Both the position numbers and the translations under genes were made by a program. The notes under the pieces are model-generated. The model was not told the origin of the DNA. It did not search any database and worked only from the letters and a program-made list of their open reading frames with translations. From Candidatus Terrybacteria bacterium RIFCSPHIGHO2_01_FULL_43_35 (lineage in GTDB: Bacteria > Patescibacteriota > Minisyncoccia > Terrybacterales > GWB1-40-14), in assembly GCA_001822815.1 (NCBI GenBank), contig MHSR01000013.1, forward strand, positions 85,093 to 149,092: a stretch of DNA of 64,000 bases, in the 5' to 3' direction. Below are positions 2,863 through 57,121 of this stretch, piece after piece. Numbering within the stretch: the stretch's first letter is position 1; every line of letters starts with the position of its first letter.

Positions 2863-3279
2863 CTAACGCTTCGTGCTCAAAACATTCTTGATTTTTGTTA
2901 TTATTTCTCCAGGAGTAAAGTGAGCCTTAATTAGAAAATCCGTTGCCCCCAAGCTTAAACCTTTTTCAACATCTTCACGCTGCCCCAGGTTTGAAAGTAT
3001 GACCACGGGAATGGTTTGGCTGTCTGGCATTTCTCTTATTTTTTTCAAGACCTCAAAACCGCTCATGCCGGGGAGAATTAGATCAAGTAGAACAATGTCC
3101 GGTTTCTGTTCGGATAACTTGCGTAATCCGCTTTCGCCATCAACTGTCTGCATGACATCAAATTTTTCTTTCTCAAGTTTCTGGGCTATCAATTCGCGTA
3201 AAAAACGGTCATCTTCTATTAGCAAGACTTTAGCTATAGTAGCGTTGTCGTTTGCGTTAGTTGGTTGTTCATTGGCCAT
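2863..3279 (-). CDS. Single-domain response regulator (CheY-like receiver)
   Basis: Receiver motifs LLIEDD...DIVLLDLILPGMSGFEVLKKIR...PVVILSN...GATDFLIK with no output domain. It lies adjacent to a histidine kinase. Confidence 0.8.
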   Translation of the reverse strand: MANEQPTNANDNATIAKVLLIEDDRFLRELIAQKLEKEKFDVMQTVDGESGLRKLSEQKPDIVLLDLILPGMSGFEVLKKIREMPDSQTIPVVILSNLGQREDVEKGLSLGATDFLIKAHFTPGEIITKIKNVLSTKR

Positions 3280-3369
3280 AAGATTTTATTTTAAGTGAAT
3301 TATAACGCTTTTTTCATTATACAACAATTCTATAATCGCAGCAAACTCTGCAAATAAATTTGGGGTAGG

Positions 3370-4569
3370 CTATTCTATTTCGGGAACGAAACCGCTGTCT
3401 TTTTGTTTAAAGGGGATAGTGAAAGTAAACACCGACCCATGACCTTCTTGCGATTCCGCCCATATTTTACCGCCGTGTCGCTCTATTATATTTTTAACTA
3501 TGAAAAGTCCCAGTCCGGTCCCGGAACTTTGCATGCGAATAACGTTTGAAGCTCTGAAAAATTTAACGAATAATTTTTTGATCTCGTCTTTGGGTATGCC
3601 CACGCCAGTATCGGTTATTGAAACTCGAATTTCTTCTTCTAAGGCCTCGCTTTTAATCGTGATTTTCCCGCCGGCCAAAGTATAATTTATGGCGTTAGAC
3701 AGAAGATTATTAATTGCCAACCCAATTCTTTCTTCATCTATGGCAATTAGAGGAATGGGTGCGGGCGAGTGAATAAACTCTAGTTTAATGTTCTTGCCTA
3801 GAGCTATCAAATAAAATTCTTCCTTAACCGACTCAATGATTTTTTCTATGTATGCGCTCTTAAAGTTGTAGCCTATCCTGCCTTCCTCAATTCGAGAAAC
3901 ATCCAGAAGTTCATTAACTAAAGCAATCAATCTTTCGTTCGCGGTCGAGGCACGTTCTATGGCTTGCTTCTGTTCGGAAGTCATAGCCCCCCAATCCTCA
4001 TCCAAGAGCATCCTGAAGGTCCATTTTATTCCAGAAAGAGGGGCTCGGAGCTGGTGTGCGGCTATAGAAATAAATTCCGATTTGAGCTTATTCATTTTTT
4101 CTTCTTGCTCATTAGCCTTATCTATATATTCTGACATTTCATTAAAGTGCTGTGCCAGATCGCCGAATTCGTCGTGATTCCTTACCGGAACCCTTACGTT
4201 TCTTTTTCCTGCTGATAAATCTCCAAAAGCCTTACGCAAATCAAGTATGGGCTTGATAAAAGAGGTGCTTATTAAATAGGCAATTAGTATTAAACTGGAT
4301 GACGCCAGAAAAACAGCTAAAGTTATCAGTCCTACGAGCTCCAGGACTTTATCCAAATCGTCTTGGACCGAATGCCCTACCAACACGACACCTGAAAAAA
4401 TGATTGCTCGGAAAGCAGCCTCGTATGCTTGTATTGAGAAAAGCAGGGCAAAAATAAGTGGCAGTACGCCAAAAACCGTCACGGTAGCCAATATCTTTCC
4501 CGCTATTGAAAACCTGAATTTTTTGCTGTGCGTTTTTGGTTCTGGATATTTCGCTAGTTGTTCGTTCAT
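3370..4569 (-). CDS. Sensor histidine kinase (two TM segments, HAMP, HisKA, HATPase_c)
   Basis: H-box AAHQLRAPLSGIKW, N-box NLLSNAINYT, G-boxes DTGVGIP and GTGLGLFIVKNIIERHGGKIWAES. Confidence 0.85.
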   Translation of the reverse strand: MNEQLAKYPEPKTHSKKFRFSIAGKILATVTVFGVLPLIFALLFSIQAYEAAFRAIIFSGVVLVGHSVQDDLDKVLELVGLITLAVFLASSSLILIAYLISTSFIKPILDLRKAFGDLSAGKRNVRVPVRNHDEFGDLAQHFNEMSEYIDKANEQEEKMNKLKSEFISIAAHQLRAPLSGIKWTFRMLLDEDWGAMTSEQKQAIERASTANERLIALVNELLDVSRIEEGRIGYNFKSAYIEKIIESVKEEFYLIALGKNIKLEFIHSPAPIPLIAIDEERIGLAINNLLSNAINYTLAGGKITIKSEALEEEIRVSITDTGVGIPKDEIKKLFVKFFRASNVIRMQSSGTGLGLFIVKNIIERHGGKIWAESQEGHGSVFTFTIPFKQKDSGFVPEIE

Positions 4570-26991: not shown

Positions 26992-27831
26992 TTAAGGCTG
27001 ACGGCAGAATGGCAAAACTAAGCCTTGAGCGCCGCCTTCCCATACGCAGCCAACGGCCTCACAAGCCGCCTTGCCTTGATTAGTGCAGGCGGTGCAACTG
27101 GATATAGAACAAGTGGGTGTAATTGCTCCGCCACCGCCGGAAGAAGTTCCTTGAGGAGCGCAACAATACACATCATGGAAGGCCTCTACGTATCCAGTTG
27201 TAGAATTGGTGGTATAGCTTCGTTCTATAGCGCATTCGGTGCGGATGCCACCGCATGTATTGGCGTTACATACGGAATTCGCCTCATCCACACTTACATT
27301 ATCCATAAGCTTACCGCATTCTGAACGCTGACTGGGACATTTGGCGCCATAAGCATTATCTGCTGTAGGCAGGGTTATTGTTGCAAAATTCACCAAGCTA
27401 CCATTTATGGCAGCTAAAATGATGTAGGAACTCAAAAGCAGGACCAGTCCAAGAATGGCGTTGGTTATCCTTTCCTTGGCTTCGTTTTGAGAAGTTGAAT
27501 TGCCCGCACCTGCGGCATATTGGATGCCTGCGACAACCATCATTACCAAAGCAAGGAAACCGGCAGAGCCTACGCCCAGCTTGAATACATAGACGATTAG
27601 ATCCGGAAGGCTGCCGGTGTTTGTGCCAATTGTTGGATTAAAAGAACCAATAATAGGCAAGCCAAGTCCTTTTTCAAACGGGATACCTTGGTTCGGGTCG
27701 TTTATGGTGCATATCGTGGCGGCATTGCTTGTTTGAGCAAAGTAAAAAACCGAAAAGAAAACAATTAAACCTAACATTAAAAGCGCGAATTGCGATCTAA
27801 TCCTCACATTTTTCAAGATAAATTTAACCAT
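26992..27831 (-). CDS. VirB2/TrbC-like pilin candidate with a Cys-rich C-terminal domain
   Basis: Signal peptide, then two hydrophobic helices separated by a short loop (FLALVMMVVAGIQYAAGAGN ... ILGLVLLLSSYIILAAI). The C-terminal roughly 120 aa carries more than 14 Cys. It is the last gene of the T4SS-like operon. Confidence 0.4.
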   Translation of the reverse strand: MVKFILKNVRIRSQFALLMLGLIVFFSVFYFAQTSNAATICTINDPNQGIPFEKGLGLPIIGSFNPTIGTNTGSLPDLIVYVFKLGVGSAGFLALVMMVVAGIQYAAGAGNSTSQNEAKERITNAILGLVLLLSSYIILAAINGSLVNFATITLPTADNAYGAKCPSQRSECGKLMDNVSVDEANSVCNANTCGGIRTECAIERSYTTNSTTGYVEAFHDVYCCAPQGTSSGGGGAITPTCSISSCTACTNQGKAACEAVGCVWEGGAQGLVLPFCRQP

Positions 27832-27854: not shown

Positions 27855-28409
27855 TTAAAAACCAAGCGCGTGGCCGATATTGGTCAAAGCATCGCCTATA
27901 AAACCGGCTACGCCGCCGACAGTCCCTACAACAAGCAGAATGATAATGATAAATGGAACAAACAGCATCATTATACCGAATACTAACCCTCCAATTATCA
28001 AAAACGGCACCAAGAAGCCTAAAGCCAGAGGATTACTTAAGAGGCGCTTAACCACGTGTCTTAAAACGAAGCCTTGCGGAGTGAATTGTTTTACGCCGGA
28101 AGTTGCGGCGTCTATTACTGCGCCAATACCCTGTTGACGCAGACTCTGTATGCGCGAGTGCCGCAGACCAGAACTTCTTTGATCTTCGTTGTCTTGAGGT
28201 GCCGTAGCCTTGGACGCAACGCGTTTGGCCACCTGCCTTAAGGCAAATCCTTGCGGAGTGAATTTTTTCACGCCCCCCGTTGCCGTATCTATAGCCTTAT
28301 TAATACCTTGCTGGCGCACGGCTTGAAGGCGCGCGCGGCGCAATTGTGCCTGGCGTTGCATTTCCACGTCTTGAGTTCCATCCATATTTAAAGCTGCTTC
28401 TTCGGCCAT
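27855..28409 (-). CDS. Membrane protein with two roughly 40-aa tandem repeats and a C-terminal double TM
   Basis: RRARLQAVRQQGINKAIDTATGGVKKFTPQGFALRQVAKR is repeated as RHSRIQSLRQQGIGAVIDAATSGVKQFTPQGFVLRHVVKR. Two TM helices follow. Confidence 0.5.
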   Translation of the reverse strand: MAEEAALNMDGTQDVEMQRQAQLRRARLQAVRQQGINKAIDTATGGVKKFTPQGFALRQVAKRVASKATAPQDNEDQRSSGLRHSRIQSLRQQGIGAVIDAATSGVKQFTPQGFVLRHVVKRLLSNPLALGFLVPFLIIGGLVFGIMMLFVPFIIIILLVVGTVGGVAGFIGDALTNIGHALGF

Positions 28410-28494
28410 ATGTACTAATTATAATATTTAAAACCTTTATAAGATATAGGACTTACACGTTTGCTTTTTTGAACGGATTAAGATAGCGATGTTT

Positions 28495-30306
28495 TTAACT
28501 GTTTGGGCTACGGCTTTGTTTTAACGCCACCAACTGCTCCGGATCCGATGTTATTATCTTATCTTCGGTATATGAAGCCACTACTTTTATGGCCACATGT
28601 TTCAAGCCGGCGAAAAACAGCCCCTCCCCCACCGCGGCTTCCAATAGAAGATATTTTTCTTCATCCGTCAGGTTAAAGGCTTGTTTTACCGCCTCAATTG
28701 TCGCGGGAGATTGTTTGAACAATATTTGCAGAGAGGAATTGGTAATTAAAGGCTGGCCGTATTTTGAATTCAGGAAATCGTTGACGTCCTGCGTTATTGT
28801 GGACAGGCCCAAGTAATATTTGCGCGCTCGCTTGGCTATGGAATAAAGGAAAGATCCGCCGTCTTCATGTTGCATTACCCACCAGGCCTCATCCACAACC
28901 AGCATGCGTTTCTTTAGAGATCCGCGCACCACGTTCCATATATGGTGCAAAATCATGTACATGGCTATAGGCCTTAAAGAATCCTCAAGATCGCGGATGT
29001 TGAAGACCACAAGATTATTGTTCAAATCGAGATTTGAAGGTTGATCAACGAACCCGGCGCTCGTGCCTTCAGTGAATTTTTTTAGCCGCGCGGCTAATTC
29101 GTCTCCGCCAACCAAACTTTCCAATACGGTAATGAAATCCTTTAAAACCGGTGGGTTAATGTTTTTAAAATCGCTCTCCGGAGTTATGTTGCGTGAGGCG
29201 TATGTTTCTTCCACTGCCGTGTCCATCAAGGCTTCTTGAGTTTCGTTTATGGTCCCAAGCATTATTCTTAGCAAGCCCGTAAGCTCAAGAAGATGCGAGC
29301 GGAAAATATCGGCTTGGGATTCGCCCTCAACAACCCGCGGCAAATCAAAGGGATTAATTTTATTCTGGCTGGTCAAAGAAATTTTAAAATAACTTCCGCC
29401 CACGGCCTCGGCTAAGCGTTCATACTCGTTTTCGGGATCAATAATAATTACGTCAACGCCCACCATAAGCGAGCGCAATATTTCTAGTTTCATGGCATAG
29501 GATTTTCCTCCGCCAGATTGGCCAAATATCACTGTATTGGCATTGGGCAGACTGAAACGATCAAAAATAACCAGAGAATTGTTATGCCGGTTAACGCCAT
29601 ACATTATCCCCTTATCCGTCGTTAAATCAAAAGAAACAAAAGGGAAAATTGTCGCCAGCGATTCAGAATCCAGGTTGTTTGTAATATTCAACCAATCCTC
29701 GTTGTAAGGGAATGCCGATTTTAAGGCCTCGCTCTGTTGAAATACGGCTGGCTTGGCATAAACCAATTTTCCTTCCAGGAGAGACCTTAAGACCGTTTCC
29801 TGTTTATCAAGCTCTTCGGGTGTTTTGCTCCACACTGTTATATAAAGCGAGAACTGAAAAAGATGACTTGAGGCTTGTTGTAATTTGTCCCTTAATTCTT
29901 CAACGTCTTCATAAGCCGTTTCCAGTATTGGATCACGCACGAGACCTTTTTCCTCTTCTATGGCTATCTGTGATTCTACCTCAGCAACTTTTTTGCGCAG
30001 TTTTTTAAGTATCATTCCGGTATCAATAGGATGTATGTGCATAGAAATATCCATGACCGCATCCATGTTTATTATCGGCGCAAACCAGTTAGTGGATAGA
30101 TACCGGGGATAGGTGAATATAAAAAACGTCCGGCAGTAGCGCTCCCCTACCTTAATAAAATTCTGACCAAATTCCAGAGCCGCTGGCGCCACCAGATCTT
30201 TTAGGGTGGTAATGCCGCGGGCAAAAACCTGACCGGCCTCGGCGAGAATGCGCTCGGTTTCTTGAGAAGACGGCGTTTTTTGTTTTTTAGAAGATAAAAT
30301 AGACAT
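28495..30306 (-). CDS. virB4: VirB4/TrbE-family T4SS ATPase, C-terminal roughly 600-aa fragment (ATPase domain)
   Basis: Walker A VIFGQSGGGKSY and Walker B VVDEAWWVM. The N-terminus (LKDLVAPAALEFGQNFIKVGERYCRTF...) continues the VirB4 fold after the N-domain encoded separately at 30701-31363. Confidence 0.85.
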   Translation of the reverse strand: MSILSSKKQKTPSSQETERILAEAGQVFARGITTLKDLVAPAALEFGQNFIKVGERYCRTFFIFTYPRYLSTNWFAPIINMDAVMDISMHIHPIDTGMILKKLRKKVAEVESQIAIEEEKGLVRDPILETAYEDVEELRDKLQQASSHLFQFSLYITVWSKTPEELDKQETVLRSLLEGKLVYAKPAVFQQSEALKSAFPYNEDWLNITNNLDSESLATIFPFVSFDLTTDKGIMYGVNRHNNSLVIFDRFSLPNANTVIFGQSGGGKSYAMKLEILRSLMVGVDVIIIDPENEYERLAEAVGGSYFKISLTSQNKINPFDLPRVVEGESQADIFRSHLLELTGLLRIMLGTINETQEALMDTAVEETYASRNITPESDFKNINPPVLKDFITVLESLVGGDELAARLKKFTEGTSAGFVDQPSNLDLNNNLVVFNIRDLEDSLRPIAMYMILHHIWNVVRGSLKKRMLVVDEAWWVMQHEDGGSFLYSIAKRARKYYLGLSTITQDVNDFLNSKYGQPLITNSSLQILFKQSPATIEAVKQAFNLTDEEKYLLLEAAVGEGLFFAGLKHVAIKVVASYTEDKIITSDPEQLVALKQSRSPNS

Positions 30307-30700
30307 TTAGCTAAAATTTCTAATTACTAATTTCTAATTGACCTAAGCAACTCTCAAGATACAAGATACAATAACCAGACAAATCACAATAATCAAAAGT
30401 TCAAATTCCAAAGCTCATCCTTCGACTCTACTCAGGATGACCCTGAACGGAAACGAATGGGTCAAATGACAATTCATGGATTCGACTTCGCTCACCATGA
30501 CCCTGAGTAGAGTCGAACGGGTCAATGCTTAAAATTCAAAGGCTTAAAACCGTTTTTGTGCCTTAGTCATTTAGGCTTGAATTGAAATTTAGATTTTGGC
30601 ATTTGGGTATTGTCTGTATCTTGGGTCTTGGTTATTCGCAACATTTTTGTCATTAGACATAGGGATTTGATTAGAAATTAAGAATTAGAAATTAGACATT
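30307..30700. mobile_element. Family-A MITE-like palindromic element (394 bp) inserted between the two halves of virB4
   Basis: Terminal inverted repeats AAATTTCTAATTACTAATTTCTAATTGACCTAAG (30314-30347) and its reverse complement at 30664-30700. Internal sub-palindromes are present (TCGACTCTACTCAGG / CCTGAGTAGAGTCGA). Related copies lie at 37451, 45858 and 56991. AT-rich, no ORF. Confidence 0.6.
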
Positions 30701-31363
30701 TTAAGCTTCTGCATTCAATGCGGCCATATCGGGTACTCCGCCAGTCTCTTCCTTCTCTGGATTATACAGGCCCCAAATTAGTTCTATTAGTTCTTCGGTG
30801 GTAAGCATGGTTGACCTAGAGCCCAAACCGCGCAAGCCTTGTTCAACAAATTCTACCCGTTGCACAAGTTGATTGCGAAACTCGTGGAATTTTGCGGCAT
30901 CTATAAAAAACTCTTTTCTGGACGCGGGCAGTAAGGTGGATTTAATACTGCCCAAGGGGCCGGTGTCTTTGGCCGCCGCGGCTTCAAGCGCAAAGGGCAC
31001 TATAACATAATAGGTTTTAGACATTATGGATACGGTTTCCACAAAAGAGCGTATGAATTCAATATATTCTTGGGTTTGGATCTTTAAGAGTTCATTTTCT
31101 TGGGCGGCCTCTAACTGCGAAAGAGTTGATAAATAGCCGGATATATTTAGGCGGCGCGAATGGACAAAAATCTGTAGATTAAAGTCCAGTGAGTTTAGAA
31201 AATTCTGGAAACCGTATATTATAGCCTCCTGTTCGTCTTGAGACTTCAGGCCAAAATTGGTTGCCGAAACCATTAAAATGGCTCGCAAAGAGCCGTCTTT
31301 TAACACAATGACATCGTCGCGTATTTGTTCAAATTGTAGGAAAGATTGAGTGGAAGAAGGCAT
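30701..31363 (-). CDS. virB4: VirB4 N-terminal domain encoded as a separate ORF
   Basis: FEQIRDDVIVLKDGSLRAILMVSATNFGLKSQDEQEAIIYGFQNFLNSLDFNLQIFVHSRR aligns position by position with the N-domain of A. tumefaciens VirB4 (...DHIVLLEDGSIMSIARIDGVAFELEEIEMRN...). 220 + 603 aa approximates one full-length VirB4. Confidence 0.7.
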   Translation of the reverse strand: MPSSTQSFLQFEQIRDDVIVLKDGSLRAILMVSATNFGLKSQDEQEAIIYGFQNFLNSLDFNLQIFVHSRRLNISGYLSTLSQLEAAQENELLKIQTQEYIEFIRSFVETVSIMSKTYYVIVPFALEAAAAKDTGPLGSIKSTLLPASRKEFFIDAAKFHEFRNQLVQRVEFVEQGLRGLGSRSTMLTTEELIELIWGLYNPEKEETGGVPDMAALNAEA

Positions 31364-31395
31364 ATGCCGTCGTTGCCCGCGAGCTCGCTCGCGGT

Positions 31396-31453
31396 TGCAA
31401 CGACGTGCATCCTAAGGAGCGAAGCGACGAGGGACTACCTTAATAAAAAATTC
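31396..31453 (-). repeat. 58-bp leader repeat, copy 1 (upstream of the VirB4-N gene)
   Basis: TGCAACGACGTGCATCCTAAGGAGCGAAGCGACGAGGGACTACCTTAATAAAAAATTC, versus copy 2 at 31926-31983 with 6 mismatches. An adjacent 38-bp hairpin (31368-31405) reaches to 5 nt from the start codon. Confidence 0.6.
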
Positions 31454-31479: not shown

Positions 31480-31899
31480 TTAGGATTTACGTACTTGAGT
31501 ATCTACATCTAGCGCCGTGGCCAACTCCTTTATTTTCTGCACGGTGAGTCCTTCGCCGCCAGCCCGCCTAGATGCGTCAAAAGGAGACTTTTTGTGTTCA
31601 CGTATCTTTATTCGCGGATTTTCTTTGTGCCATATATAGTTTTTTGGATTTACGGCAAATTTCAGCGCGGCAAATAAAAAAGTTCCGAAAGACCGCTCGT
31701 TGATTTTCACGAAAGCGAAGCAAACGCCAGCAACGACGCAAAAGAAAGCCAGCATTTTCCCAACAGGATTTTTTAACAAAACAAATAACAAAGCGGCAGA
31801 AATACCGGCCGTGCCCAAATCAATAGCCTGCCATAATGTCAGACCAGCCACAACCTTATCCTGCACGTCAATAAATTTTGGAACTTTAGCTTGCGCCAT
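31480..31899 (-). CDS. VirB3/PrgI-like small two-TM protein
   Basis: 139 aa with an N-terminal KVPKFIDVQDKVVAGLTLWQAI motif, then two TM helices. Sits directly upstream of virB4 (canonical VirB3-VirB4 order). Confidence 0.5.
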   Translation of the reverse strand: MAQAKVPKFIDVQDKVVAGLTLWQAIDLGTAGISAALLFVLLKNPVGKMLAFFCVVAGVCFAFVKINERSFGTFLFAALKFAVNPKNYIWHKENPRIKIREHKKSPFDASRRAGGEGLTVQKIKELATALDVDTQVRKS

Positions 31900-31925
31900 G
31901 GTTGCTCCCGAGCAACGCGAGGGAA

Positions 31926-31983
31926 TGCAACCATGTGCATCCCGAGGAGCGAAGCGACGAGGGACTACCTTAATAAAAAATTC
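31926..31983 (-). repeat. 58-bp leader repeat, copy 2 (upstream of the VirB3-like gene)
   Basis: TGCAACCATGTGCATCCCGAGGAGCGAAGCGACGAGGGACTACCTTAATAAAAAATTC. A CATGGTTGC...GCAACCATG hairpin (31897-31935) includes the start codon. Confidence 0.6.
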
Positions 31984-32656: not shown

Positions 32657-34702
32657 TTATTTATTCTCTTCTTCCTGCCGTTTTGTCAGTCTTTCTAAAT
32701 GGTCAGCGGCCTCATTCGGCGTTCTGAGCTGTTTTACGGGTCCAGCTTTTACGGCCTCAACTATTCTGCCGCCAACTTTATTGAGTTGCGACTGCAATAA
32801 TTGCGTATCAAAACCGGCTCCGGCTATGGCGGGATTCCTAACTAGATAGTCAAATGTTGGCGCATTGGCTTTGTAGGCTCTGGCCAGGTATTCCTCGTTC
32901 TCTGAAAGCTTTTTTATGGCAGCGATTAGTTGTGGTGTAGCATGTCCTGCATCCACCATTTGGCCGATTCCATTGCCAGTTATTCTGGTCATTAACACCT
33001 CAGCAAATTCAGAAGCCCCAGTGATATTACCGGCTGCGTCTTTTTCAATGAGCGCATTTCCTGGGATTTGCCTTGCGTTAGCAGGAGCGGCCAGGTTATA
33101 ACTGCCAGGACGAGCCTCCATCATCTTTTCATAGGCGACCATGCGACTCTTTTTATCTGTGGTATCAACTCCATAAAACGGACTTGTTCTATCCTTACTT
33201 AAGAGTTCTAAAGCCAAAGCTGGGTTTGCCCCCACAATAGAGCCTTCTTTTCCAATCTTCCTCAGATAACCGAACGAATTCGTAAAGTCGTCACCCCTTA
33301 AGGGTCTTTTTTCGGCTAAGGCAATTAAGGCACCGGCTTTTTCGCGTCGGTCCGTCATACTGCTTAAGCGATTCTCGATACTCTGAACAGCGCGAGGTCC
33401 AAGAGAAGCCTCTTTTCTGTATTTTTCCGCATGTTCTCCCACGGCCGCTTCATCGGCTCGCATGCCGCCGCGCAATGGAGCAGAAATCGCTCCTCCAAAA
33501 ACCGGGATGCGCTCAATGCGTCCAGCGACGCCAGACCTTAGGCCATAAGTTCTATCCTTAATTTCTCTTCCCACTCCCCTACGCACAGCTCTTGCGCCGG
33601 CAATGGTCGGAGCGGCTACGAGGCCCGTGACCAAGCCTGCGGCAACTCCTCCGGCTTGGCCAGACATCTTTTTTGAAATAGCCATGCCTTGCGATAAGAA
33701 AATAAAGACCGTGATAAACTGCAATATATTTTTACCCACAAGCAGAAGCGGAGTTATGGCTTCATTGGTTAGGGTGTAATTGGTTGCGGCAACAAATATT
33801 TTGGTGTCGGGATCGTTCAGATAAGATACCAGCCATGTTGTAAGCCAAATAAAGAACGTGCCGAATACGCCAAACAGTGACCAGGTAATCAATTGATTCA
33901 TCCAATCTTGGAAGAAGCCCTTAGTTCTAGGCAGGACAAGTGAGATCATGGCTAAGGGCGAAACTATAAGAATGGTCCACAAGATGACAATGCGCATCAC
34001 AAAAAGTATGGCCAAAAACAATAGCAGGAAAAAGGTTGCGGCCGCAAATACTATTGAGAACATCAGGTTTGCTACTTTCAGCCAAGTGCCGGGTATCTGC
34101 GCCCCGGAAGGCGTATTTATTTGTAAATCCCCTACCCGCAAAGCGCTGGCCAATACCTCGCCGATGTTCTTGTTGGTGCCAAAGCCGTTGGCAATGAAAA
34201 AGCCCATGATGACGTTAGCGAAGTTTATAACCATCGCGCCCAAAAACAAACTGAAGTTTACCAATATGGCGGCTATCAGGAACTGCGGCATCAGCTTCCT
34301 TAAATTATAGTCCGGAAGACCAAGTATAGTGCCGAAAGCGATCACAACCAAAATAAACGCAAAAAACATGTTCACTAAATCTCTAACCACGCCCCAGCCA
34401 GTGCGCACCATGTCGTTGTCAAAGTAGCCCATGTAGCGGTTAACATCTACAACCACGAAAGTTAGCAGAGCGCCCGCAAGTGTTACAAACCAAATAAATA
34501 TTTCCAATATTAATCCTAAAATGAAAGCGATTATCTGGCCTATTAAATCGCAAAGGTCAACGCCGATAGGGCCTACGCCAATAAAACATTGGGCAGAAGC
34601 CGCTTGAGGGGCCAAAACACCGCCGGCAATAACCAAAATCAACAACATTACTGCCATTTTGCCCCTATTAAATTTTATTTTTTTAAATGACGTTGAGTGC
34701 AT
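32657..34702 (-). CDS. VirB6/TrbL-like polytopic membrane protein with a large C-terminal soluble domain
   Basis: Signal/TM, then at least six TM helices over about 350 aa, then a roughly 300-aa hydrophilic domain. Position relative to VirB3/VirB4 fits VirB6. Confidence 0.55.
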   Translation of the reverse strand: MHSTSFKKIKFNRGKMAVMLLILVIAGGVLAPQAASAQCFIGVGPIGVDLCDLIGQIIAFILGLILEIFIWFVTLAGALLTFVVVDVNRYMGYFDNDMVRTGWGVVRDLVNMFFAFILVVIAFGTILGLPDYNLRKLMPQFLIAAILVNFSLFLGAMVINFANVIMGFFIANGFGTNKNIGEVLASALRVGDLQINTPSGAQIPGTWLKVANLMFSIVFAAATFFLLLFLAILFVMRIVILWTILIVSPLAMISLVLPRTKGFFQDWMNQLITWSLFGVFGTFFIWLTTWLVSYLNDPDTKIFVAATNYTLTNEAITPLLLVGKNILQFITVFIFLSQGMAISKKMSGQAGGVAAGLVTGLVAAPTIAGARAVRRGVGREIKDRTYGLRSGVAGRIERIPVFGGAISAPLRGGMRADEAAVGEHAEKYRKEASLGPRAVQSIENRLSSMTDRREKAGALIALAEKRPLRGDDFTNSFGYLRKIGKEGSIVGANPALALELLSKDRTSPFYGVDTTDKKSRMVAYEKMMEARPGSYNLAAPANARQIPGNALIEKDAAGNITGASEFAEVLMTRITGNGIGQMVDAGHATPQLIAAIKKLSENEEYLARAYKANAPTFDYLVRNPAIAGAGFDTQLLQSQLNKVGGRIVEAVKAGPVKQLRTPNEAADHLERLTKRQEEENK

Positions 34703-37399: not shown

Positions 37400-37450
37400 A
37401 TTAAGTACTTAGCGAAAAGCGTAAAGCGCAAAACGTAAAATGCGGTTTCA

Positions 37451-37581
37451 AATTGACCTAATTACTCTAATTGATCTAAACAACGTCTAATGCCAAAATT
37501 TCTAAACGCGCATTTTGGTCATTGGTGCTTGGATATTGGGGCTTGCTTAGGTCAATTAGAAATTAGAATAATTAGAAATTT
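37451..37581. repeat. Family-A short palindromic element (TIRs only)
   Basis: AATTGACCTAATTACTCTAATTGATC ... GCTTAGGTCAATTAGAAATTAGAATAATTAGAAATTT. The right arm is the reverse complement of the left TIR at 30314-30350. Confidence 0.5.
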
Positions 37582-37643
37582 ACAGCGGTTTTTAACTTTA
37601 CACTGTTATTTTACGTCTTTCGCTTTAAATTTTACATTTATTG

Positions 37644-45857: not shown

Positions 45858-46058
45858 AGCATAAATTAAAAAGTAAAATGCTAATTGAAAATTTAAGAAA
45901 CAATTACCAAGAAACAAGATACAGACAATTTCCAATATTCAATAACCAATAATCAACTTTATGTTTGAATTTTGGAATTTGGGTATTGTAATTTGTCTGG
46001 TTATTGTTTCTTGTGTCTTGGTTATTATGACTTTTAATATTTAATTTTTGATCTGCGC
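45858..46058. repeat. Family-A-related palindromic element (inner arms)
   Basis: CAAGAAACAAGATACAGACAA...AATAACCAATAATCAA / TTTGGGTATTGT...TGTCTGGTTATTGTTTCTTG. Shares inner-arm words with 30350-30420 and 30570-30640. Confidence 0.45.
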
Positions 46059-55483: not shown

Positions 55484-56992
55484 ATGATTAAGTATAATTG
55501 TATGCGAGAAAATAAAACAGTTTTGGAAGAAATAAAAGTGCCGGATAAGATTCAGCTGCCAAAAGAAGTTAAAGAGACGATGCAAAAGCTGGATAAAGGC
55601 GGCTTTAAGGCTTTTGTTGTGGGCGGGTGTCTGCGCGATATATTATTGAGCCGCGATCCCAAGGATTGGGATATAGCCACCAATGCCGAGCCAGAACAGA
55701 TTCAAGAGATTTTTCCGGATTCATTTTACGAAAATACTTTCGGCACAGTCGGCATAAAAACAGATTCAAAAAAAGAAGAGCTGAAAGTAATTGAAGTCAC
55801 TACTTTCCGCATCGAAAGTGATTATACCGACAAGCGCCATCCCGATTCGGTGCATTTTGCGAAAACCATTGAGGAGGATTTATCGCGCCGCGATTTTACC
55901 ATTAACGCCATGGCTTGGGATGGCAAAACGCTTATTGACCCTTATGGCGGACAAAAAGATCTTAAAAAAAGGACTATAAGGACTGTTGGCGATGCCGATC
56001 GGCGTTTTCAAGAGGACGCCCTAAGGCTTATGCGCGCTATACGCTTTGGCTCCGAGCTCAATTTTGTTTTGGATAGCAGGACAGCCGAATCCATGCACGA
56101 TCATGCCGGCTTGCTGGAGTTTATTTCTAAGGAGCGCATAGGAGACGAATTCCGCAAATTAATCATGACTACGCACGCGGCACGCGGCATAGAACTTTTG
56201 CGCGATTTAAAAATGCTAAAGTTTGTTTTGCCTGAACTTGAAGAAGGTTGGGATGTTGATCAGAATAAGCATCATATTTATACGGTGTGGGAGCATAATG
56301 TACGTGCCTTGCAATATGCTACCGAACAAGGATATTCTTTTGACGTGCGCTTGGCGGCGTTGCTTCACGATGTGGGCAAACCAAGAAGTAAGCGCGGCAC
56401 CGGTCCGGATTCAACTTTCTACGGCCATGAAGTTATCGGTGCCAAGCTTGCCGCGCGGGCCCTGGAGCGTCTGCACTTTTCTAAAAAAGAAATAGAAAAA
56501 ATATCTTTGCTGGTGCGCGCACATATGTTTAATTATGATCCAAATGTTGTCACCGACGCTTCAGTAAGAAGGCTTATAGCCAAAGTAGGGGAGGAGAACA
56601 TAAAAGATCTGGTTCAAGTGCGTGAAGCTGACCGCATAGGCTCAGGCGTCAAAAAAGCCGTGCCTTATAAGCTTAGGCACTTTATGTTCAGGATTGAGAA
56701 AGTTCTGGCCAAACCGGTTTCGCGCAAGACCATGAAGCTTGATGGAAATGAGCTTATGACTGTCTTGAAACTTGAGGCAGGACCGCGCGTGGGCGCAATT
56801 TTGGAAGCATTATTTGAAGAAATTTTAGATGATCCAGGGCGCAATAAGAAAGATTACCTTGTTGCGCGGGCAAAAGAATTAAATGAGATGTCAGATAAAG
56901 AACTTGGGGCCTTGCGCAAAAAAGCACAGGATAAGTACGCCTCAGTTCTTGAATACGAGGAAGGATTGATGAAAGACAAATATGGCGTATAA
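55484..56992 (+). CDS. cca: CCA-adding tRNA nucleotidyltransferase with HD domain
   Basis: Pol-beta NT motif FVVGGCLRDILL...DWDIAT. HD domain LLHDVGK...H...D. Confidence 0.85.
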   Translation: MIKYNCMRENKTVLEEIKVPDKIQLPKEVKETMQKLDKGGFKAFVVGGCLRDILLSRDPKDWDIATNAEPEQIQEIFPDSFYENTFGTVGIKTDSKKEELKVIEVTTFRIESDYTDKRHPDSVHFAKTIEEDLSRRDFTINAMAWDGKTLIDPYGGQKDLKKRTIRTVGDADRRFQEDALRLMRAIRFGSELNFVLDSRTAESMHDHAGLLEFISKERIGDEFRKLIMTTHAARGIELLRDLKMLKFVLPELEEGWDVDQNKHHIYTVWEHNVRALQYATEQGYSFDVRLAALLHDVGKPRSKRGTGPDSTFYGHEVIGAKLAARALERLHFSKKEIEKISLLVRAHMFNYDPNVVTDASVRRLIAKVGEENIKDLVQVREADRIGSGVKKAVPYKLRHFMFRIEKVLAKPVSRKTMKLDGNELMTVLKLEAGPRVGAILEALFEEILDDPGRNKKDYLVARAKELNEMSDKELGALRKKAQDKYASVLEYEEGLMKDKYGV

Positions 56993-57121
56993 ATTTCTAA
57001 TTTTTAATTTCCAATTTCTAATTATTCTTAAAAATAAATTGAAGACTGTGTCATGGTGTACCCAGCCCCAATTCTTAATTAGAGCTGGGCAGCAGTATGT
57101 CCTGGCACGCATTAAAAAACT

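What the first reader, a model, noticed from the sequence alone, without database searches (positions are those of the whole stretch)
28495..31363. VirB4 ATPase split into two ORFs by a 394-bp MITE-like palindromic insertion
The 220-aa ORF at 30701-31363 aligns residue by residue with the N-domain of VirB4 (DDVIVLKDGSLRAILMVSATNFGLKSQDEQ... versus A. tumefaciens DHIVLLEDGSIMSIARIDGVAFELEEIE...). The 603-aa ORF at 28495-30306 carries the rest of VirB4, including Walker A and B motifs. Exactly between them lies a 394-bp AT-rich element with roughly 34-bp terminal inverted repeats and no coding capacity. Either a T4SS ATPase has been inactivated by a mobile element, or the system works with a two-polypeptide VirB4. 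The downstream half has no obvious SD, which argues for disruption or unusual reinitiation.
Basis: partly seen in the sequence, partly recalled or inferred. Interest (0 to 1): 0.78.

Follow-up and report, generated by a model that had tools for sequence, protein, structure and literature searches.

The report
Naturally two-gene VirB4 plus intergenic repeat
The secretion-system ATPase VirB4 of this Candidatus Terrybacteria genome is encoded in two genes, as it is across the Patescibacteria. A 394-bp palindromic repeat later landed in the spacer between the two genes and did not break anything, so the finding is largely ordinary.

Summary
On the minus strand, a 220-aa ORF (30701-31363) has a VirB4 N-terminal fold. 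A 603-aa ORF (28495-30306) carries the rest of VirB4, with Walker A and B motifs. Between them lies a non-coding 394-bp element with 28-nt terminal inverted repeats.

The causal claim fails. The small ORF has about 3,100-3,800 homologues, and nearly all are stand-alone proteins of about 215 aa. Orthologous loci at 50-79% identity keep the same two genes, separated by 1-43 nt, with no element. The arrangement is published as TrsD + VirB4 of the Patescibacteria T4SS (PMC12102498). One rare fused relative (797 aa) shows that the two ORFs are abutting, colinear pieces.

The element is a lineage-specific insertion in the intercistronic spacer. It belongs to a family of heptamer-built AT-rich palindromes found across Patescibacteria. 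It carries a GC-rich double hairpin at its apex, and TA flanks it on both sides. When folded, the hairpin leaves the upstream stop about 5 nt from the downstream ATG.

The missing Shine-Dalgarno is uninformative: only 2 of 54 ORFs in the window have one.

The repeat family is the more novel by-product.

The parts
30701..31363 (-). TrsD / TraC-like protein. It is the N-terminal piece of VirB4 encoded as a separate 220-aa gene.
   Evidence: One search gives the ORF. One search found 3126 homologues, and the best 120 are all 194-238 aa with a precomputed PF26593 'TraC-like' hit. One search shows it matches the N-terminal positions of VirB4 profiles, plus TrsD NF041427 (E 3.9e-4). Searches show its AF2 model matches TrwK/VirB4. 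One search aligns it to residues 1-216 of the fused relative P0224.
28495..30306 (-). VirB4 ATPase lacking the first ~200 residues of the N-terminal domain. It is 603 aa, with Walker A at 262-269 and Walker B at 468-473.
   Evidence: One search gives Pfam hits to P-loop_TraG, AAA_10 and DUF87. One search gives conju_CD1110 at 371.8 bits, above the 325 cut-off, covering profile positions 185-733. locates the Walker motifs. One search shows 56% identity to residues 216-793 of fused P0224.
30307..30700 (.). 394-bp non-coding palindromic repeat element in the intercistronic spacer. If TA..TA is a target duplication, the element proper is 30314-30700.
   Evidence: characterise it. It is absent from orthologous loci. 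It is present and identical in every contig examined from this population that reaches the element.
30676..30703 (.). Outer inverted-repeat arm next to the upstream gene. It includes the TAA stop of the 220-aa ORF and is built of 7-nt units (ATTAGAA x4.4).
   Evidence: (I2).
30312..30339 (.). Outer inverted-repeat arm next to the downstream gene. It ends 5 nt (GCTAA) before the ATG of VirB4 and is built of 7-nt units (AATTTCT x3.6).
   Evidence: (I2). It overlaps the 20-mer TTAGGTCAATTAGAAATTAG (30325-30344), which is found more than 120 times in each of two public collections.
30344..30363 (.). Inner inverted-repeat arm, which pairs with 30615-30634. It is followed by CAAGATA heptamers. The related module occurs at 45964-46020.
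   Evidence: (I5).
30615..30634 (.). Partner of the inner inverted-repeat arm.
   Evidence: I5.
30414..30527 (.). GC-rich apex made of two REP-like hairpin units (30421-30465 and 30481-30525). The two units also pair with each other.
   Evidence: D1, I1. One search gives a fold of -48.9 kcal/mol (z -5.1). One search shows the unit CCTGAG(N)4-6GTCGAA recurs in other CPR loci.
31480..31899 (-). PrgI (VirB3-like) gene, immediately upstream of the TrsD-like gene as in relatives.
   Evidence: One search gives PF12666 at E 2.6e-9. The same order is seen in L001, L253, L255 and L257.
32657..34702 (-). 681-aa polytopic membrane protein at the VirB6/TrbL position of the cluster.
   Evidence: One search gives the translation. 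There are no Pfam or NCBIfam hits here. The protein at the same position in the Ryanbacteria locus and in L258 has a weak TrbL hit.
26992..27831 (-). T4SS pilin-like protein that closes the cluster.
   Evidence: One search gives PF18895 at E 3.1e-7.
37446..37585 (.). Smaller palindrome of the same repeat family. Its right end is 83% identical over 66 nt to 30314-30377.
   Evidence: One search gives a fold with z -3.5.
45885..46034 (.). Palindrome that shares the inner (CAAGATA-type) modules of the element.
   Evidence: One search gives a fold with z -4.8.

Best explanation
This is the chromosomal, monoderm-type (MPF-FATA-like) type IV secretion cluster of a Candidatus Terrybacteria genome. The gene order is VirB6-like, a 222-aa protein, PrgI/VirB3, TrsD-like, VirB4, a 184-aa protein, then pilin.

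In this lineage VirB4 is natively made as two polypeptides. One is a ~215-aa TrsD/TraC-like protein, which corresponds to the first half of the VirB4 N-terminal domain. The other is a ~600-aa protein carrying the rest of that domain plus the ATPase domain. The split is ancient and conserved; the repeat did not cause it.

After this lineage diverged from its nearest sampled relatives, a 394-bp palindromic repeat was inserted into the very short spacer between the two cistrons. The repeat has heptamer-built AT-rich arms and a GC-rich double hairpin at its apex. The reconstructed empty site is GCT-TAG-CTAA-ATG. Neither reading frame was changed.

The following steps are inferred, not shown. The element is co-transcribed and folds into a long hairpin. 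The base of that hairpin lies next to the upstream stop codon and 5 nt from the downstream AUG. Stop and start therefore stay effectively adjacent. The AUG is also masked by pairing with the last codons of the upstream gene, so translation of the TrsD-like gene would unmask it. The insertion is thus tolerated or nearly neutral. At most it changes the relative expression of the two halves.
For: Evidence that the split is ancestral:
- The small ORF has 3126 homologues, and the best 120 are all 194-238 aa.
- An exhaustive profile search found 3807 cluster representatives. Only 1 of the best 150 is of fused length.
- Orthologous loci keep the order PrgI, TraC-like, VirB4. Their spacers are 1 nt (Ryanbacteria, Giovannonibacteria), 4 nt (L001-L003), 10 nt (L257), 41 nt (L011) and 43 nt (L004).
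- The stop and start codons are at homologous residues: ...LNAEA* / MSILSS here, against ...LNAEA* / MSFLSS in L011.

Evidence that the pieces are complementary:
- On the CD1110 profile, the small ORF covers positions 2-119 and the large ORF covers 185-733.
- In fused P0224, residues 1-216 align to the small ORF and residues 216-793 to the large ORF.
- Pfam TraC_F_IV spans the junction in P0224.
- The fold of the small ORF matches TrwK/VirB4.

Literature: TrsD is a remote homologue of the VirB4 N-terminus. Patescibacteria have 2272 TrsD homologues, 1664 of them next to virB4, and the homologue in Southlakia epibionticum is essential (PMC12102498). A Geobacillus plasmid has the same three-gene layout.

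Evidence on the element:
- It is absent in relatives.
- It has terminal inverted repeats and a significant fold.
- Related copies occur in the window.
- Its terminal 20-mer is found more than 120 times in each of two collections, mostly in CPR genomes.
- TA flanks both ends.
- Helix geometry: 30704-30707 pairs with 30309-30312, and 30710-30712 pairs with 30303-30305.

Both ORFs are intact and identical in all contigs examined from about 20 carrying this VirB4 sequence, from several samples.
Against: - There are no expression data. Whether the downstream VirB4 is still made at a normal level across a 394-nt structured spacer is unknown.
- The nearest relatives without the element are only 75-79% identical, so the timing of the insertion is coarse.
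- Transposition is not proven. The TA..TA flank is weak evidence in AT-rich DNA, and a family-wide test was inconclusive.
- The two arms are only about 86% complementary at the termini and much less so inside. No transposase was identified.
- The coupling-by-hairpin idea rests on an MFE prediction. Across the family the supporting enrichment is modest: the helix starts at the stop codon in 48% of cases against 27% of controls.
- The small ORF scores far below the curated TrsD cut-off (20 against 200 bits).
Confidence: 0.88

Rival explanations
1. A single virB4 gene was cut in two, and probably inactivated, by insertion of a mobile palindromic element.
For: The element lies exactly between the two VirB4-homologous ORFs and has terminal inverted repeats. 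A fused ~800-aa form exists somewhere in the family (P0224).
Against: The same stop and start positions occur in relatives that lack the element. Stand-alone small ORFs number in the thousands. Excising the element leaves stop-CTAA-ATG, not an open frame. The arrangement is published as the norm for Patescibacteria.
Confidence: 0.02
2. The 394-bp spacer is not a transposed MITE. It grew in place, by slippage of 7-nt units and hairpin-templated duplication or recombination with other copies of the same repeat vocabulary.
For: TRF finds period-7 arrays at both termini and inside the element. The nearest relatives already have 41-43-nt spacers containing similar motifs: aaatttctaaatt in L004 and ttttagct in L011. 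Family members vary continuously in length from 44 to 414 bp and are mosaics of a shared unit vocabulary, not copies of one master sequence. Family termini are not sharply defined.
Against: The element combines three module types that occur separately elsewhere in the window. The GC-rich apex unit recurs in unrelated CPR loci. TA flanks both ends. Exact 20-mers shared across very distant CPR lineages are hard to explain without transfer or strong selection.
Confidence: 0.3
3. The element is functional, not merely tolerated. As an RNA hairpin inside the operon it could act as a processing or stabilising site, or as an attenuator. That would set different levels of the upstream genes (VirB6-like, PrgI, TrsD-like) and the downstream genes (VirB4, pilin). 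REP/BIME elements do this in E. coli operons.
For: The predicted structure is very stable. The element is fixed and identical in all contigs examined from several samples. Three other spacers of the same cluster are also enlarged by repeats compared with L001: 83, 116 and 85 nt against 32, 2 and 4 nt.
Against: Relatives work with spacers of 1-10 nt, so no such element is needed for the system. No sigma-70-like promoter or intrinsic terminator pattern was found in the element. There is no Rfam family and no expression data.
Confidence: 0.25
4. The T4SS cluster of this genome is decaying, and the repeat invasions in four of its spacers are a symptom of relaxed selection.
For: Four spacers of the cluster carry repeat insertions that are absent in L001.
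Against: All genes of the cluster are full length, with no frameshift or stop. The catalytic motifs are intact. The small ORF keeps all 22 invariant and 26 near-invariant positions of its family alignment. The sequence is identical across samples. T4SS genes are essential in the one Patescibacterium tested (PMC12102498).
Confidence: 0.04

Closest known systems
TrsD + VirB4 pair of the Patescibacteria T4SS (Quinonero-Coronel et al. 2025, PMC12102498). The prototype TrsD comes from the pGO1 subclass of MPF-FATA conjugation systems.
   Same: A small protein remotely homologous to the VirB4 N-terminus is encoded just upstream of a shortened VirB4 and next to PrgI/VirB3, VirB6-like and pilin-like genes on the chromosome. 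The gene order and protein sizes here match.
   Different: Here the two genes are 394 nt apart, not 1-10 nt. The match to the curated TrsD model is weak (20 bits against a cut-off of 200). The family is better captured by Pfam PF26593 'TraC-like' (precomputed hits).
Single-polypeptide VirB4 (TrwK of R388, A. tumefaciens VirB4, F TraC, the CD1110 family)
   Same: The fold of the N-terminal piece, colinear profile coverage, Walker A/B motifs and the P-loop_TraG domain all match. One Patescibacteria-type relative is fused (P0224, 797 aa).
   Different: The polypeptide is broken inside the N-terminal domain: TraC_F_IV positions ~19-180 lie in one protein and the rest in the other.
Bacterial MITEs such as Correia (Neisseria), ERIC and RUP (reviewed in PMC3184786)
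   Same: It is non-coding, within the 100-400 bp size range, and has terminal inverted repeats. It folds into a long hairpin, is intergenic and multi-copy, and has a 5'-TA-3' flank at both ends, as reported for ERIC-type elements.
   Different: There is no defined master sequence. The arms are mosaics of 7-9-nt units, the termini are fuzzy, no partner transposase is known, and the target duplication is unproven.
REP/BIME elements in the intercistronic spacers of E. coli operons, and pneumococcal BOX elements (modular boxA-boxB(n)-boxC)
   Same: GC-rich hairpin units paired in inverted orientation sit inside an operon spacer, and the build is modular with a variable number of units. The known effects of REP on mRNA stability and differential expression are drawn from my own knowledge and were not tested here.
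   Different: Here the GC-rich units are nested at the apex of long AT-rich arms. No RAYT-type transposase was looked for, and none could be found with these tools.
STRR heptanucleotide repeats of heterocystous cyanobacteria (from my own knowledge; the held library gave no primary paper)
   Same: They are tandem 7-nt units in intergenic DNA. Family members contain runs such as ATTGGTC, which is a rotation of the STRR unit TTGGTCA as I recall it.
   Different: The phylum is different. Here the arrays are arranged as inverted pairs that form palindromes. No relationship is shown.

Membership tests
VirB4 family T4SS ATPase (603-aa ORF) | Scores above the curated cut-off of a VirB4 family model | tested here: met
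   NCBIfam NF045971 conju_CD1110 (VirB4-like conjugal transfer ATPase) scores 371.8 bits against a cut-off of 325, at E 6.6e-111. TIGR00929 VirB4_CagE scores 151.9 bits, below its cut-off of 643.
VirB4 family T4SS ATPase (603-aa ORF) | Walker A and Walker B nucleotide-binding motifs in a P-loop domain of the TraG/VirB4 type | tested here: met
   GQSGGGKS at 262-269 and MLVVDE at 468-473. PF19044 P-loop_TraG covers 253-556 at E 2.6e-24.
VirB4 family T4SS ATPase (603-aa ORF) | Complete N-terminal domain on the same polypeptide | tested here: not met
   The large ORF starts at position 185 of the 752-position CD1110 profile. Positions 2-119 are on the separate 220-aa ORF. The junction maps to residue ~216 of fused P0224.
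VirB4 family T4SS ATPase (603-aa ORF) | Encoded in a cluster with other T4SS components | tested here: met
   PrgI/VirB3 (PF12666) and T4SS_pilin (PF18895) are in the same strand run. The order is conserved in relatives.
TrsD / TraC-like stand-alone VirB4 N-terminal protein (220-aa ORF) | Homology to the N-terminal part of VirB4 | tested here: met
   NCBIfam VirB4_plasma matches at positions 103-233 (E 1.3e-8), CD1110 at 2-119 (7.5e-5) and PRK13853 at 20-80 (0.03). Foldseek's top 14 hits are TrwK/VirB4, with probability 1.0 for the best eleven and TMq 0.42-0.54. The ORF is 39% identical to residues 1-216 of fused P0224.
TrsD / TraC-like stand-alone VirB4 N-terminal protein (220-aa ORF) | Scores above the curated cut-off of the TrsD model (NF041427) | tested here: not met
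   20.3 bits against a cut-off of 200, at E 3.9e-4. The paper detected Patescibacteria TrsD with its own HMMs and with profile-profile comparison.
TrsD / TraC-like stand-alone VirB4 N-terminal protein (220-aa ORF) | Pfam PF26593 TraC-like domain | tested here: inconclusive
   Precomputed tables assign PF26593 to the identical protein and to all 120 best homologues. The local Pfam copy does not appear to hold that model: no PF26593 row even at E<=10, only weak TraC_F_IV at E 0.022.
TrsD / TraC-like stand-alone VirB4 N-terminal protein (220-aa ORF) | Separate gene immediately upstream of virB4 and downstream of prgI/virB3 | tested here: met
   This holds in the window and in L001-L004, L011, L253, L255 and L257. 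The paper finds 1664 of 2272 homologues next to virB4.
MITE (miniature inverted-repeat transposable element; definition as in PMC3184786) | Terminal inverted repeats around a non-coding core, with size up to ~400 bp | tested here: met
   The arms are 28 nt at 86% complementarity, the element is 394 bp, and the longest internal ORF is 36 aa.
MITE (miniature inverted-repeat transposable element; definition as in PMC3184786) | Flanking target-site duplication | tested here: inconclusive
   TA is present on both sides (GCT[TA]AAATG...GAAATTT[TA]GCT). The longer direct repeat AAATGTCTA (D3) is explained by an element unit plus the native gene start. In the family, AATT + T(0-4) + A follows 146 of 238 ends, which is not distinctive in AT-rich DNA.
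MITE (miniature inverted-repeat transposable element; definition as in PMC3184786) | Multiple copies in the genome | tested here: inconclusive
   Only 64 kb of the genome could be read. It holds partial relatives at 37446-37585, 45885-46034 and 56992-57030, and no second full copy. The terminal 20-mer is abundant across other genomes.
MITE (miniature inverted-repeat transposable element; definition as in PMC3184786) | Empty site at the orthologous position in relatives | tested here: met
   Spacers are 1-43 nt in eight loci from six relatives. These relatives are at most 79% identical, so this is a comparison between species, not between strains.
MITE (miniature inverted-repeat transposable element; definition as in PMC3184786) | A transposase acting in trans whose element ends match the arms | not tested
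   The rest of the genome was not available and no transposase search was done.

The most novel reading that the evidence does not exclude
The spacer element belongs to a family of intergenic palindromes that, as far as I could find, has not been described. The family is found across the Patescibacteria. Its members are built from a small vocabulary of 7-9-nt units (AATTAGNN.., ATTGGNN.., CAAGATA), sometimes with a GC-rich hairpin at the apex.

The novel reading is that these elements insert at or in the TA of stop codons and regenerate the stop. They then fold so that the upstream stop and the downstream start stay next to each other. This would let them colonise tightly coupled operons, such as TrsD-VirB4, without breaking translational coupling.
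Probability: 0.15. Interest if true: 0.55.

Novelty: new member of a known kind. Interest (0 to 1): 0.25.

Why it matters
For annotation, the result removes a false pseudogene or disruption call. Small 'hypothetical' ORFs upstream of a short virB4 in Patescibacteria are the native N-terminal piece of VirB4 (TrsD/TraC-like), which is reported as essential in the one organism tested. The locus adds one natural variant in which the two cistrons are pulled 394 nt apart by a structured repeat. That variant could be used to ask whether tight spacing or translational coupling matters for assembling a two-piece VirB4.

The by-product may be worth more than the original claim. A heptamer-built palindromic repeat vocabulary is shared across very distant CPR lineages. 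It breaks assemblies and fills operon spacers. I could not find it described in the literature I searched.

Tried and rejected
- **Long target duplication.** I first read the direct repeat AAATGTCTA(A/T)TTT at both ends (D3) as a 9-13-bp target duplication, giving an ancestral TAA-A-ATG junction. I rejected this. AATGTCTAAT is a standard unit of the repeat family, and ATGTC(T/A)(A/T)TT is the native start of the gene (L011). The TA..TA reading, which gives TAG-CTAA-ATG, fits better but is unproven.
- **Promoter or RBS function.** I considered a directional role for the arm that abuts the ATG. I rejected it because family ends sit next to gene starts (39) and next to stops of opposite-strand genes (48) about equally often. 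The promoter/terminator scan also found nothing.
- **Rfam.** Only two sub-threshold miRNA-family matches were found, at E 0.076 and 0.58. These are chance hits on a hairpin. A whole-window gathering search found only four tRNAs.
- **PDB by sequence profile.** No hit for the small ORF. The structure comparison was needed.
- **Genome collection, 24-mer.** The element's 24-mer gave 0 hits in the genome collection. The 20-mer was then used.
- **GC-rich core.** Searching it as a long pattern in the fetched loci returned only this population's own copies. A shorter motif recurred 7 times against 2.4 expected.
- **Literature.** Searches for a description of CPR intergenic palindromes and for STRR primary papers found nothing relevant.
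- **Gene-length discrepancy.** The 190-aa versus 220-aa calls for the small ORF in other assemblies are gene-caller differences on identical DNA.

Full report
**Source.** The window is part of contig MHSX01000014.1 of assembly GCA_001822905.1 (L007 is identical to the window). NCBI names the two proteins 'conjugal transfer protein TraC' and 'hypothetical protein', and UniRef names the small one 'TraC-like domain-containing protein', of a Candidatus Terrybacteria bacterium. This is a member of the Patescibacteria / Candidate Phyla Radiation (CPR).

- On the minus strand, ORF 30701-31363 encodes 220 aa and ORF 28495-30306 encodes 603 aa.
- The 394 bp between them (30307-30700) have 35% GC, against 43% for the window, and no ORF longer than 36 aa.
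- The outer inverted repeats are 28 nt at 86% complementarity (30312-30339 / 30676-30703), or 24 nt at 92%. A second pair lies further in (30344-30363 / 30615-30634). Two GC-rich 45-nt hairpin units sit at the centre.
- As RNA the region folds into one long imperfect hairpin, with an MFE of -118.3 kcal/mol against -84.1 +/- 5.8 for shuffles (z = -5.9).
- No Rfam family matches.

**Both ORFs are VirB4 pieces, and they are complementary.**
- The 603-aa ORF carries P-loop_TraG, AAA_10 and DUF87 domains, Walker A at 262-269 and Walker B at 468-473.
- It exceeds the curated cut-off of the NCBIfam CD1110 VirB4 family (371.8 against 325 bits), but it covers only profile positions 185-733.
- The 220-aa ORF matches the same profile at positions 2-119. 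It also matches the mycoplasma-type VirB4 profile at 103-233, the Agrobacterium-type profile at 20-80, and the TrsD model weakly.
- Its AlphaFold model, built from a 40-sequence alignment (pLDDT 82.8), finds only TrwK/VirB4 chains of the R388 system as its top 14 structural matches. Probability is 1.0 for the best eleven and 0.98 for the other three; the best E-value is 6.4e-4.
- A sequence profile search of the PDB found nothing.
- The clearest evidence is a rare fused relative, P0224 (797 aa). Its residues 1-216 align to the small ORF (39% identity, E 7e-45). Its residues 216-793 align to residues 25-597 of the large ORF (56% identity).
- In P0224 the Pfam TraC_F_IV N-terminal domain model spans the junction. 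The break therefore lies inside the VirB4 N-terminal domain.

**The split is ancestral, not caused by the element.**
- The small ORF has 3126 homologues at E <= 1e-3 in the word-index search, and the best 120 are all 194-238 aa.
- The exhaustive profile search found 3807 cluster representatives. Only one of the best 150 has fused length.
- Orthologous loci keep the order PrgI, TraC-like, VirB4. The TraC-like to VirB4 spacer is 4 nt in L001-L003 (75% identity; TAA-ATAT-ATG), 43 nt in L004 (79%), 41 nt in L011 (77%), 10 nt in L257, and 1 nt in a Ryanbacteria and a Giovannonibacteria locus.
- The upstream protein ends at the homologous residue in all of them, and the downstream protein starts at the homologous residue.
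- The arrangement is also in the literature. Quinonero-Coronel et al. 2025 (PMC12102498) report TrsD, a remote homologue of the VirB4 N-terminus known from the pGO1 subclass of monoderm conjugation systems, as the most abundant T4SS component of Patescibacteria. They found 2272 homologues, 1664 of them next to virB4, and note that the homologue in Southlakia epibionticum is listed as essential.
- A Geobacillus plasmid shows the same layout: PrgI, an N-domain protein, then a DUF87 ATPase.

**The argument from a missing Shine-Dalgarno does not hold.** Only 2 of 54 ORFs of at least 100 aa in the window have GGAG or GAGG upstream. The relatives with 1-4-nt spacers have none either.

**What the 394-bp element is.**
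- It is the largest same-strand intergenic gap in the window and is specific to this lineage.
- It is identical in every contig examined from this population that reaches it. About 20 contigs carry this VirB4 sequence; five loci from several samples were compared. Two other contigs break inside the element or at its edge (L005, L009), as expected for a repeat.
- It is a mosaic. The outer arms are 7-nt tandem units (AATTTCT / ATTAGAA). They are shared with a 140-bp palindrome at 37446-37585 (83% over 66 nt).
- The inner arms (CAAGATA units) are shared with a palindrome at 45885-46034.
- The apex holds two GC-rich hairpin units that also pair with each other.
- The 20-mer TTAGGTCAATTAGAAATTAG, from the arm next to the VirB4 start, occurs exactly in more than 120 JGI metagenome contigs and in more than 120 contigs of GTDB species representatives.
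- Of the 120 genome loci, by my count of the record titles 73 are named as CPR lineages (Microgenomates, Saccharibacteria, Parcubacteria, Doudnabacteria, Peregrinibacteria and many others). Thirteen are unnamed 'bacterium', and 34 carry other labels that I could not verify.
- Typical family members are 44-170-bp palindromes made from the same unit vocabulary. Some have a GC-rich hairpin in the middle, and the unit CCTGAGCG(A/G)AGTCGAAGG recurs.
- Family members lie mostly between co-directional genes (121 tandem, 19 convergent, 14 divergent). This mainly reflects gene order in these genomes.
- They show no orientation bias towards gene starts.
- I found no description of such repeats in the searchable literature.

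**Insertion site.**
- On the coding strand the junctions read GCT[TA]AAATGTCTAATT ... AATTAGAAATTT[TA]GCTAAATG.
- If TA is a target duplication, the empty site was GCT-TAG-CTAA-ATG. That is a stop, a 4-nt spacer and a start, the same spacing as in L001.
- In that case the insertion regenerated a stop codon (TA + A of the element).
- This is consistent with MITEs that have a TA target, but it is not proven. In the family the ends are fuzzy and a following T(n)A is not distinctive.
- An alternative is that the spacer grew in place by slippage of 7-nt units. The nearest relatives already have 41-43-nt spacers with similar motifs. I give this alternative about 0.3.

**How it probably works.**
- Shown: two intact, conserved genes that together make up one VirB4; a structured non-coding insert between them; its absence in relatives.
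- Inferred: the cluster is one operon and the insert is transcribed.
- In the MFE fold the last codons of the upstream ORF (30704-30707 and 30710-30712) pair with 30309-30312 and with 30303-30305, the TG of the VirB4 ATG. The main stem starts at 30693:30315.
- The stop codon therefore sits at the base of the hairpin, 5 nt across from the AUG. A ribosome finishing the TrsD-like ORF would open that base and expose the AUG.
- This would preserve the stop-to-start proximity seen in relatives and could explain why the insertion is tolerated.
- Family-wide support is modest. In 86 co-directional spacers that contain the 20-mer, the outermost helix starts at or within 1 nt of the stop codon in 48%. 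The figure is 27% in 219 control spacers without such units (Fisher p 7e-4). Both ends are tight in 24% against 11% (p 0.003).
- Genes followed directly by an arm use TAA more often (72% against 57%, p 7e-4), and the stop often lies inside a repeat unit. These tests use crude ORF calls.
- A regulatory role, such as processing, stabilisation or attenuation as known for REP/BIME in E. coli operons (my own knowledge), cannot be excluded or shown without expression data.

**Verdict.** The claim that a mobile element split or inactivated VirB4 is refuted. The two-polypeptide VirB4 is the known native state in Patescibacteria. The element is a repeat insertion in an intercistronic spacer, MITE-like in form, with mobility unproven. 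The original finding is of low interest. The CPR-wide heptamer-built palindrome family and its tendency to sit on stop codons deserve a separate look.

Noticed in passing
The genome hits span many CPR lineages. Around it lie palindromes of typically 44-170 bp (longest 414 bp), built from a shared vocabulary of 7-9-nt units (AATTAGNN.., ATTGGNN..). I found no published description.
   Followed up: partly
L136, L150, L152, L156 and about 30 other genome loci: 34 of the 120 genome contigs that carry the 20-mer are labelled as non-CPR taxa. Of these, 22 are 'uncultured Gammaproteobacteria' TPA MAGs; others are Bacteroidales, Planctomycetia, Persephonella and more. These may be mis-binned or mislabelled CPR contigs, or the repeat may range more widely.
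   Followed up: no
window 31366-31453 and 31895-31983: A second, unrelated repeat family has two copies (83% identical over 89 nt) of an AT-rich leader followed by GC-rich hairpins. They fill the spacers on both sides of prgI. The corresponding spacers in relative L001 are 2 and 32 nt.
   Followed up: partly
window 28410-28494: The spacer between VirB4 and the next gene is 85 nt here, against 4 nt in L001. Four spacers of this T4SS cluster are therefore enlarged relative to the relative.
   Followed up: no
window 37446-37585 and 45885-46034; also 56992-57030: These are further palindromes or arrays of the same repeat family. One lies between two co-directional genes. One lies between convergent genes. 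One is a short array directly after a stop codon and upstream of tRNA-Pro.
   Followed up: partly
whole window: Only 2 of 54 ORFs of at least 100 aa have a GGAG/GAGG motif within 22 nt upstream of the start. This genome makes almost no use of Shine-Dalgarno sequences.
   Followed up: partly
window 28044-28115 and 28221-28292 (inside ORF 27855-28409): The 184-aa protein downstream of VirB4 contains an internal duplication, 75% identical over 72 nt. It gives two copies of a ...QQGI..ID.AT.GVK.FTPQGF.LR.V.KR... segment ahead of a C-terminal membrane helix.
   Followed up: no
P0224 (protein from the representative library): This is a rare fused form of the Patescibacteria-type VirB4 (797 aa). It is the only fused-length protein among the best 150 representatives. 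It could be a secondary fusion or an ancestral state.
   Followed up: partly
L252 (Geobacillus subterraneus plasmid pGspE55-1, NZ_AP022558.1): Stand-alone homologues of the small ORF occur on 374 Firmicutes and archaeal plasmid records, 294 of them Bacillus. In the Geobacillus example the order is PrgI, a 318-aa N-domain protein, then a 636-aa DUF87 ATPase, with overlapping genes.
   Followed up: partly
L060, L085, L103, L135, L150, L170; window 30421-30525: The GC-rich unit (T)CCTGAGCG(A/G)AGTCGAAGG(A/G) recurs at the centre of AT-rich periodic arrays in unrelated CPR loci. It looks like a REP-like hairpin that travels with, or inserts into, the AT-rich palindromes.
   Followed up: partly
L005 (913-bp contig) and L009: Two independent assemblies of this population break inside the 394-bp element or at its edge. 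In addition, gene callers in other assemblies start the small ORF 30 codons later (190 aa) on identical DNA.
   Followed up: yes
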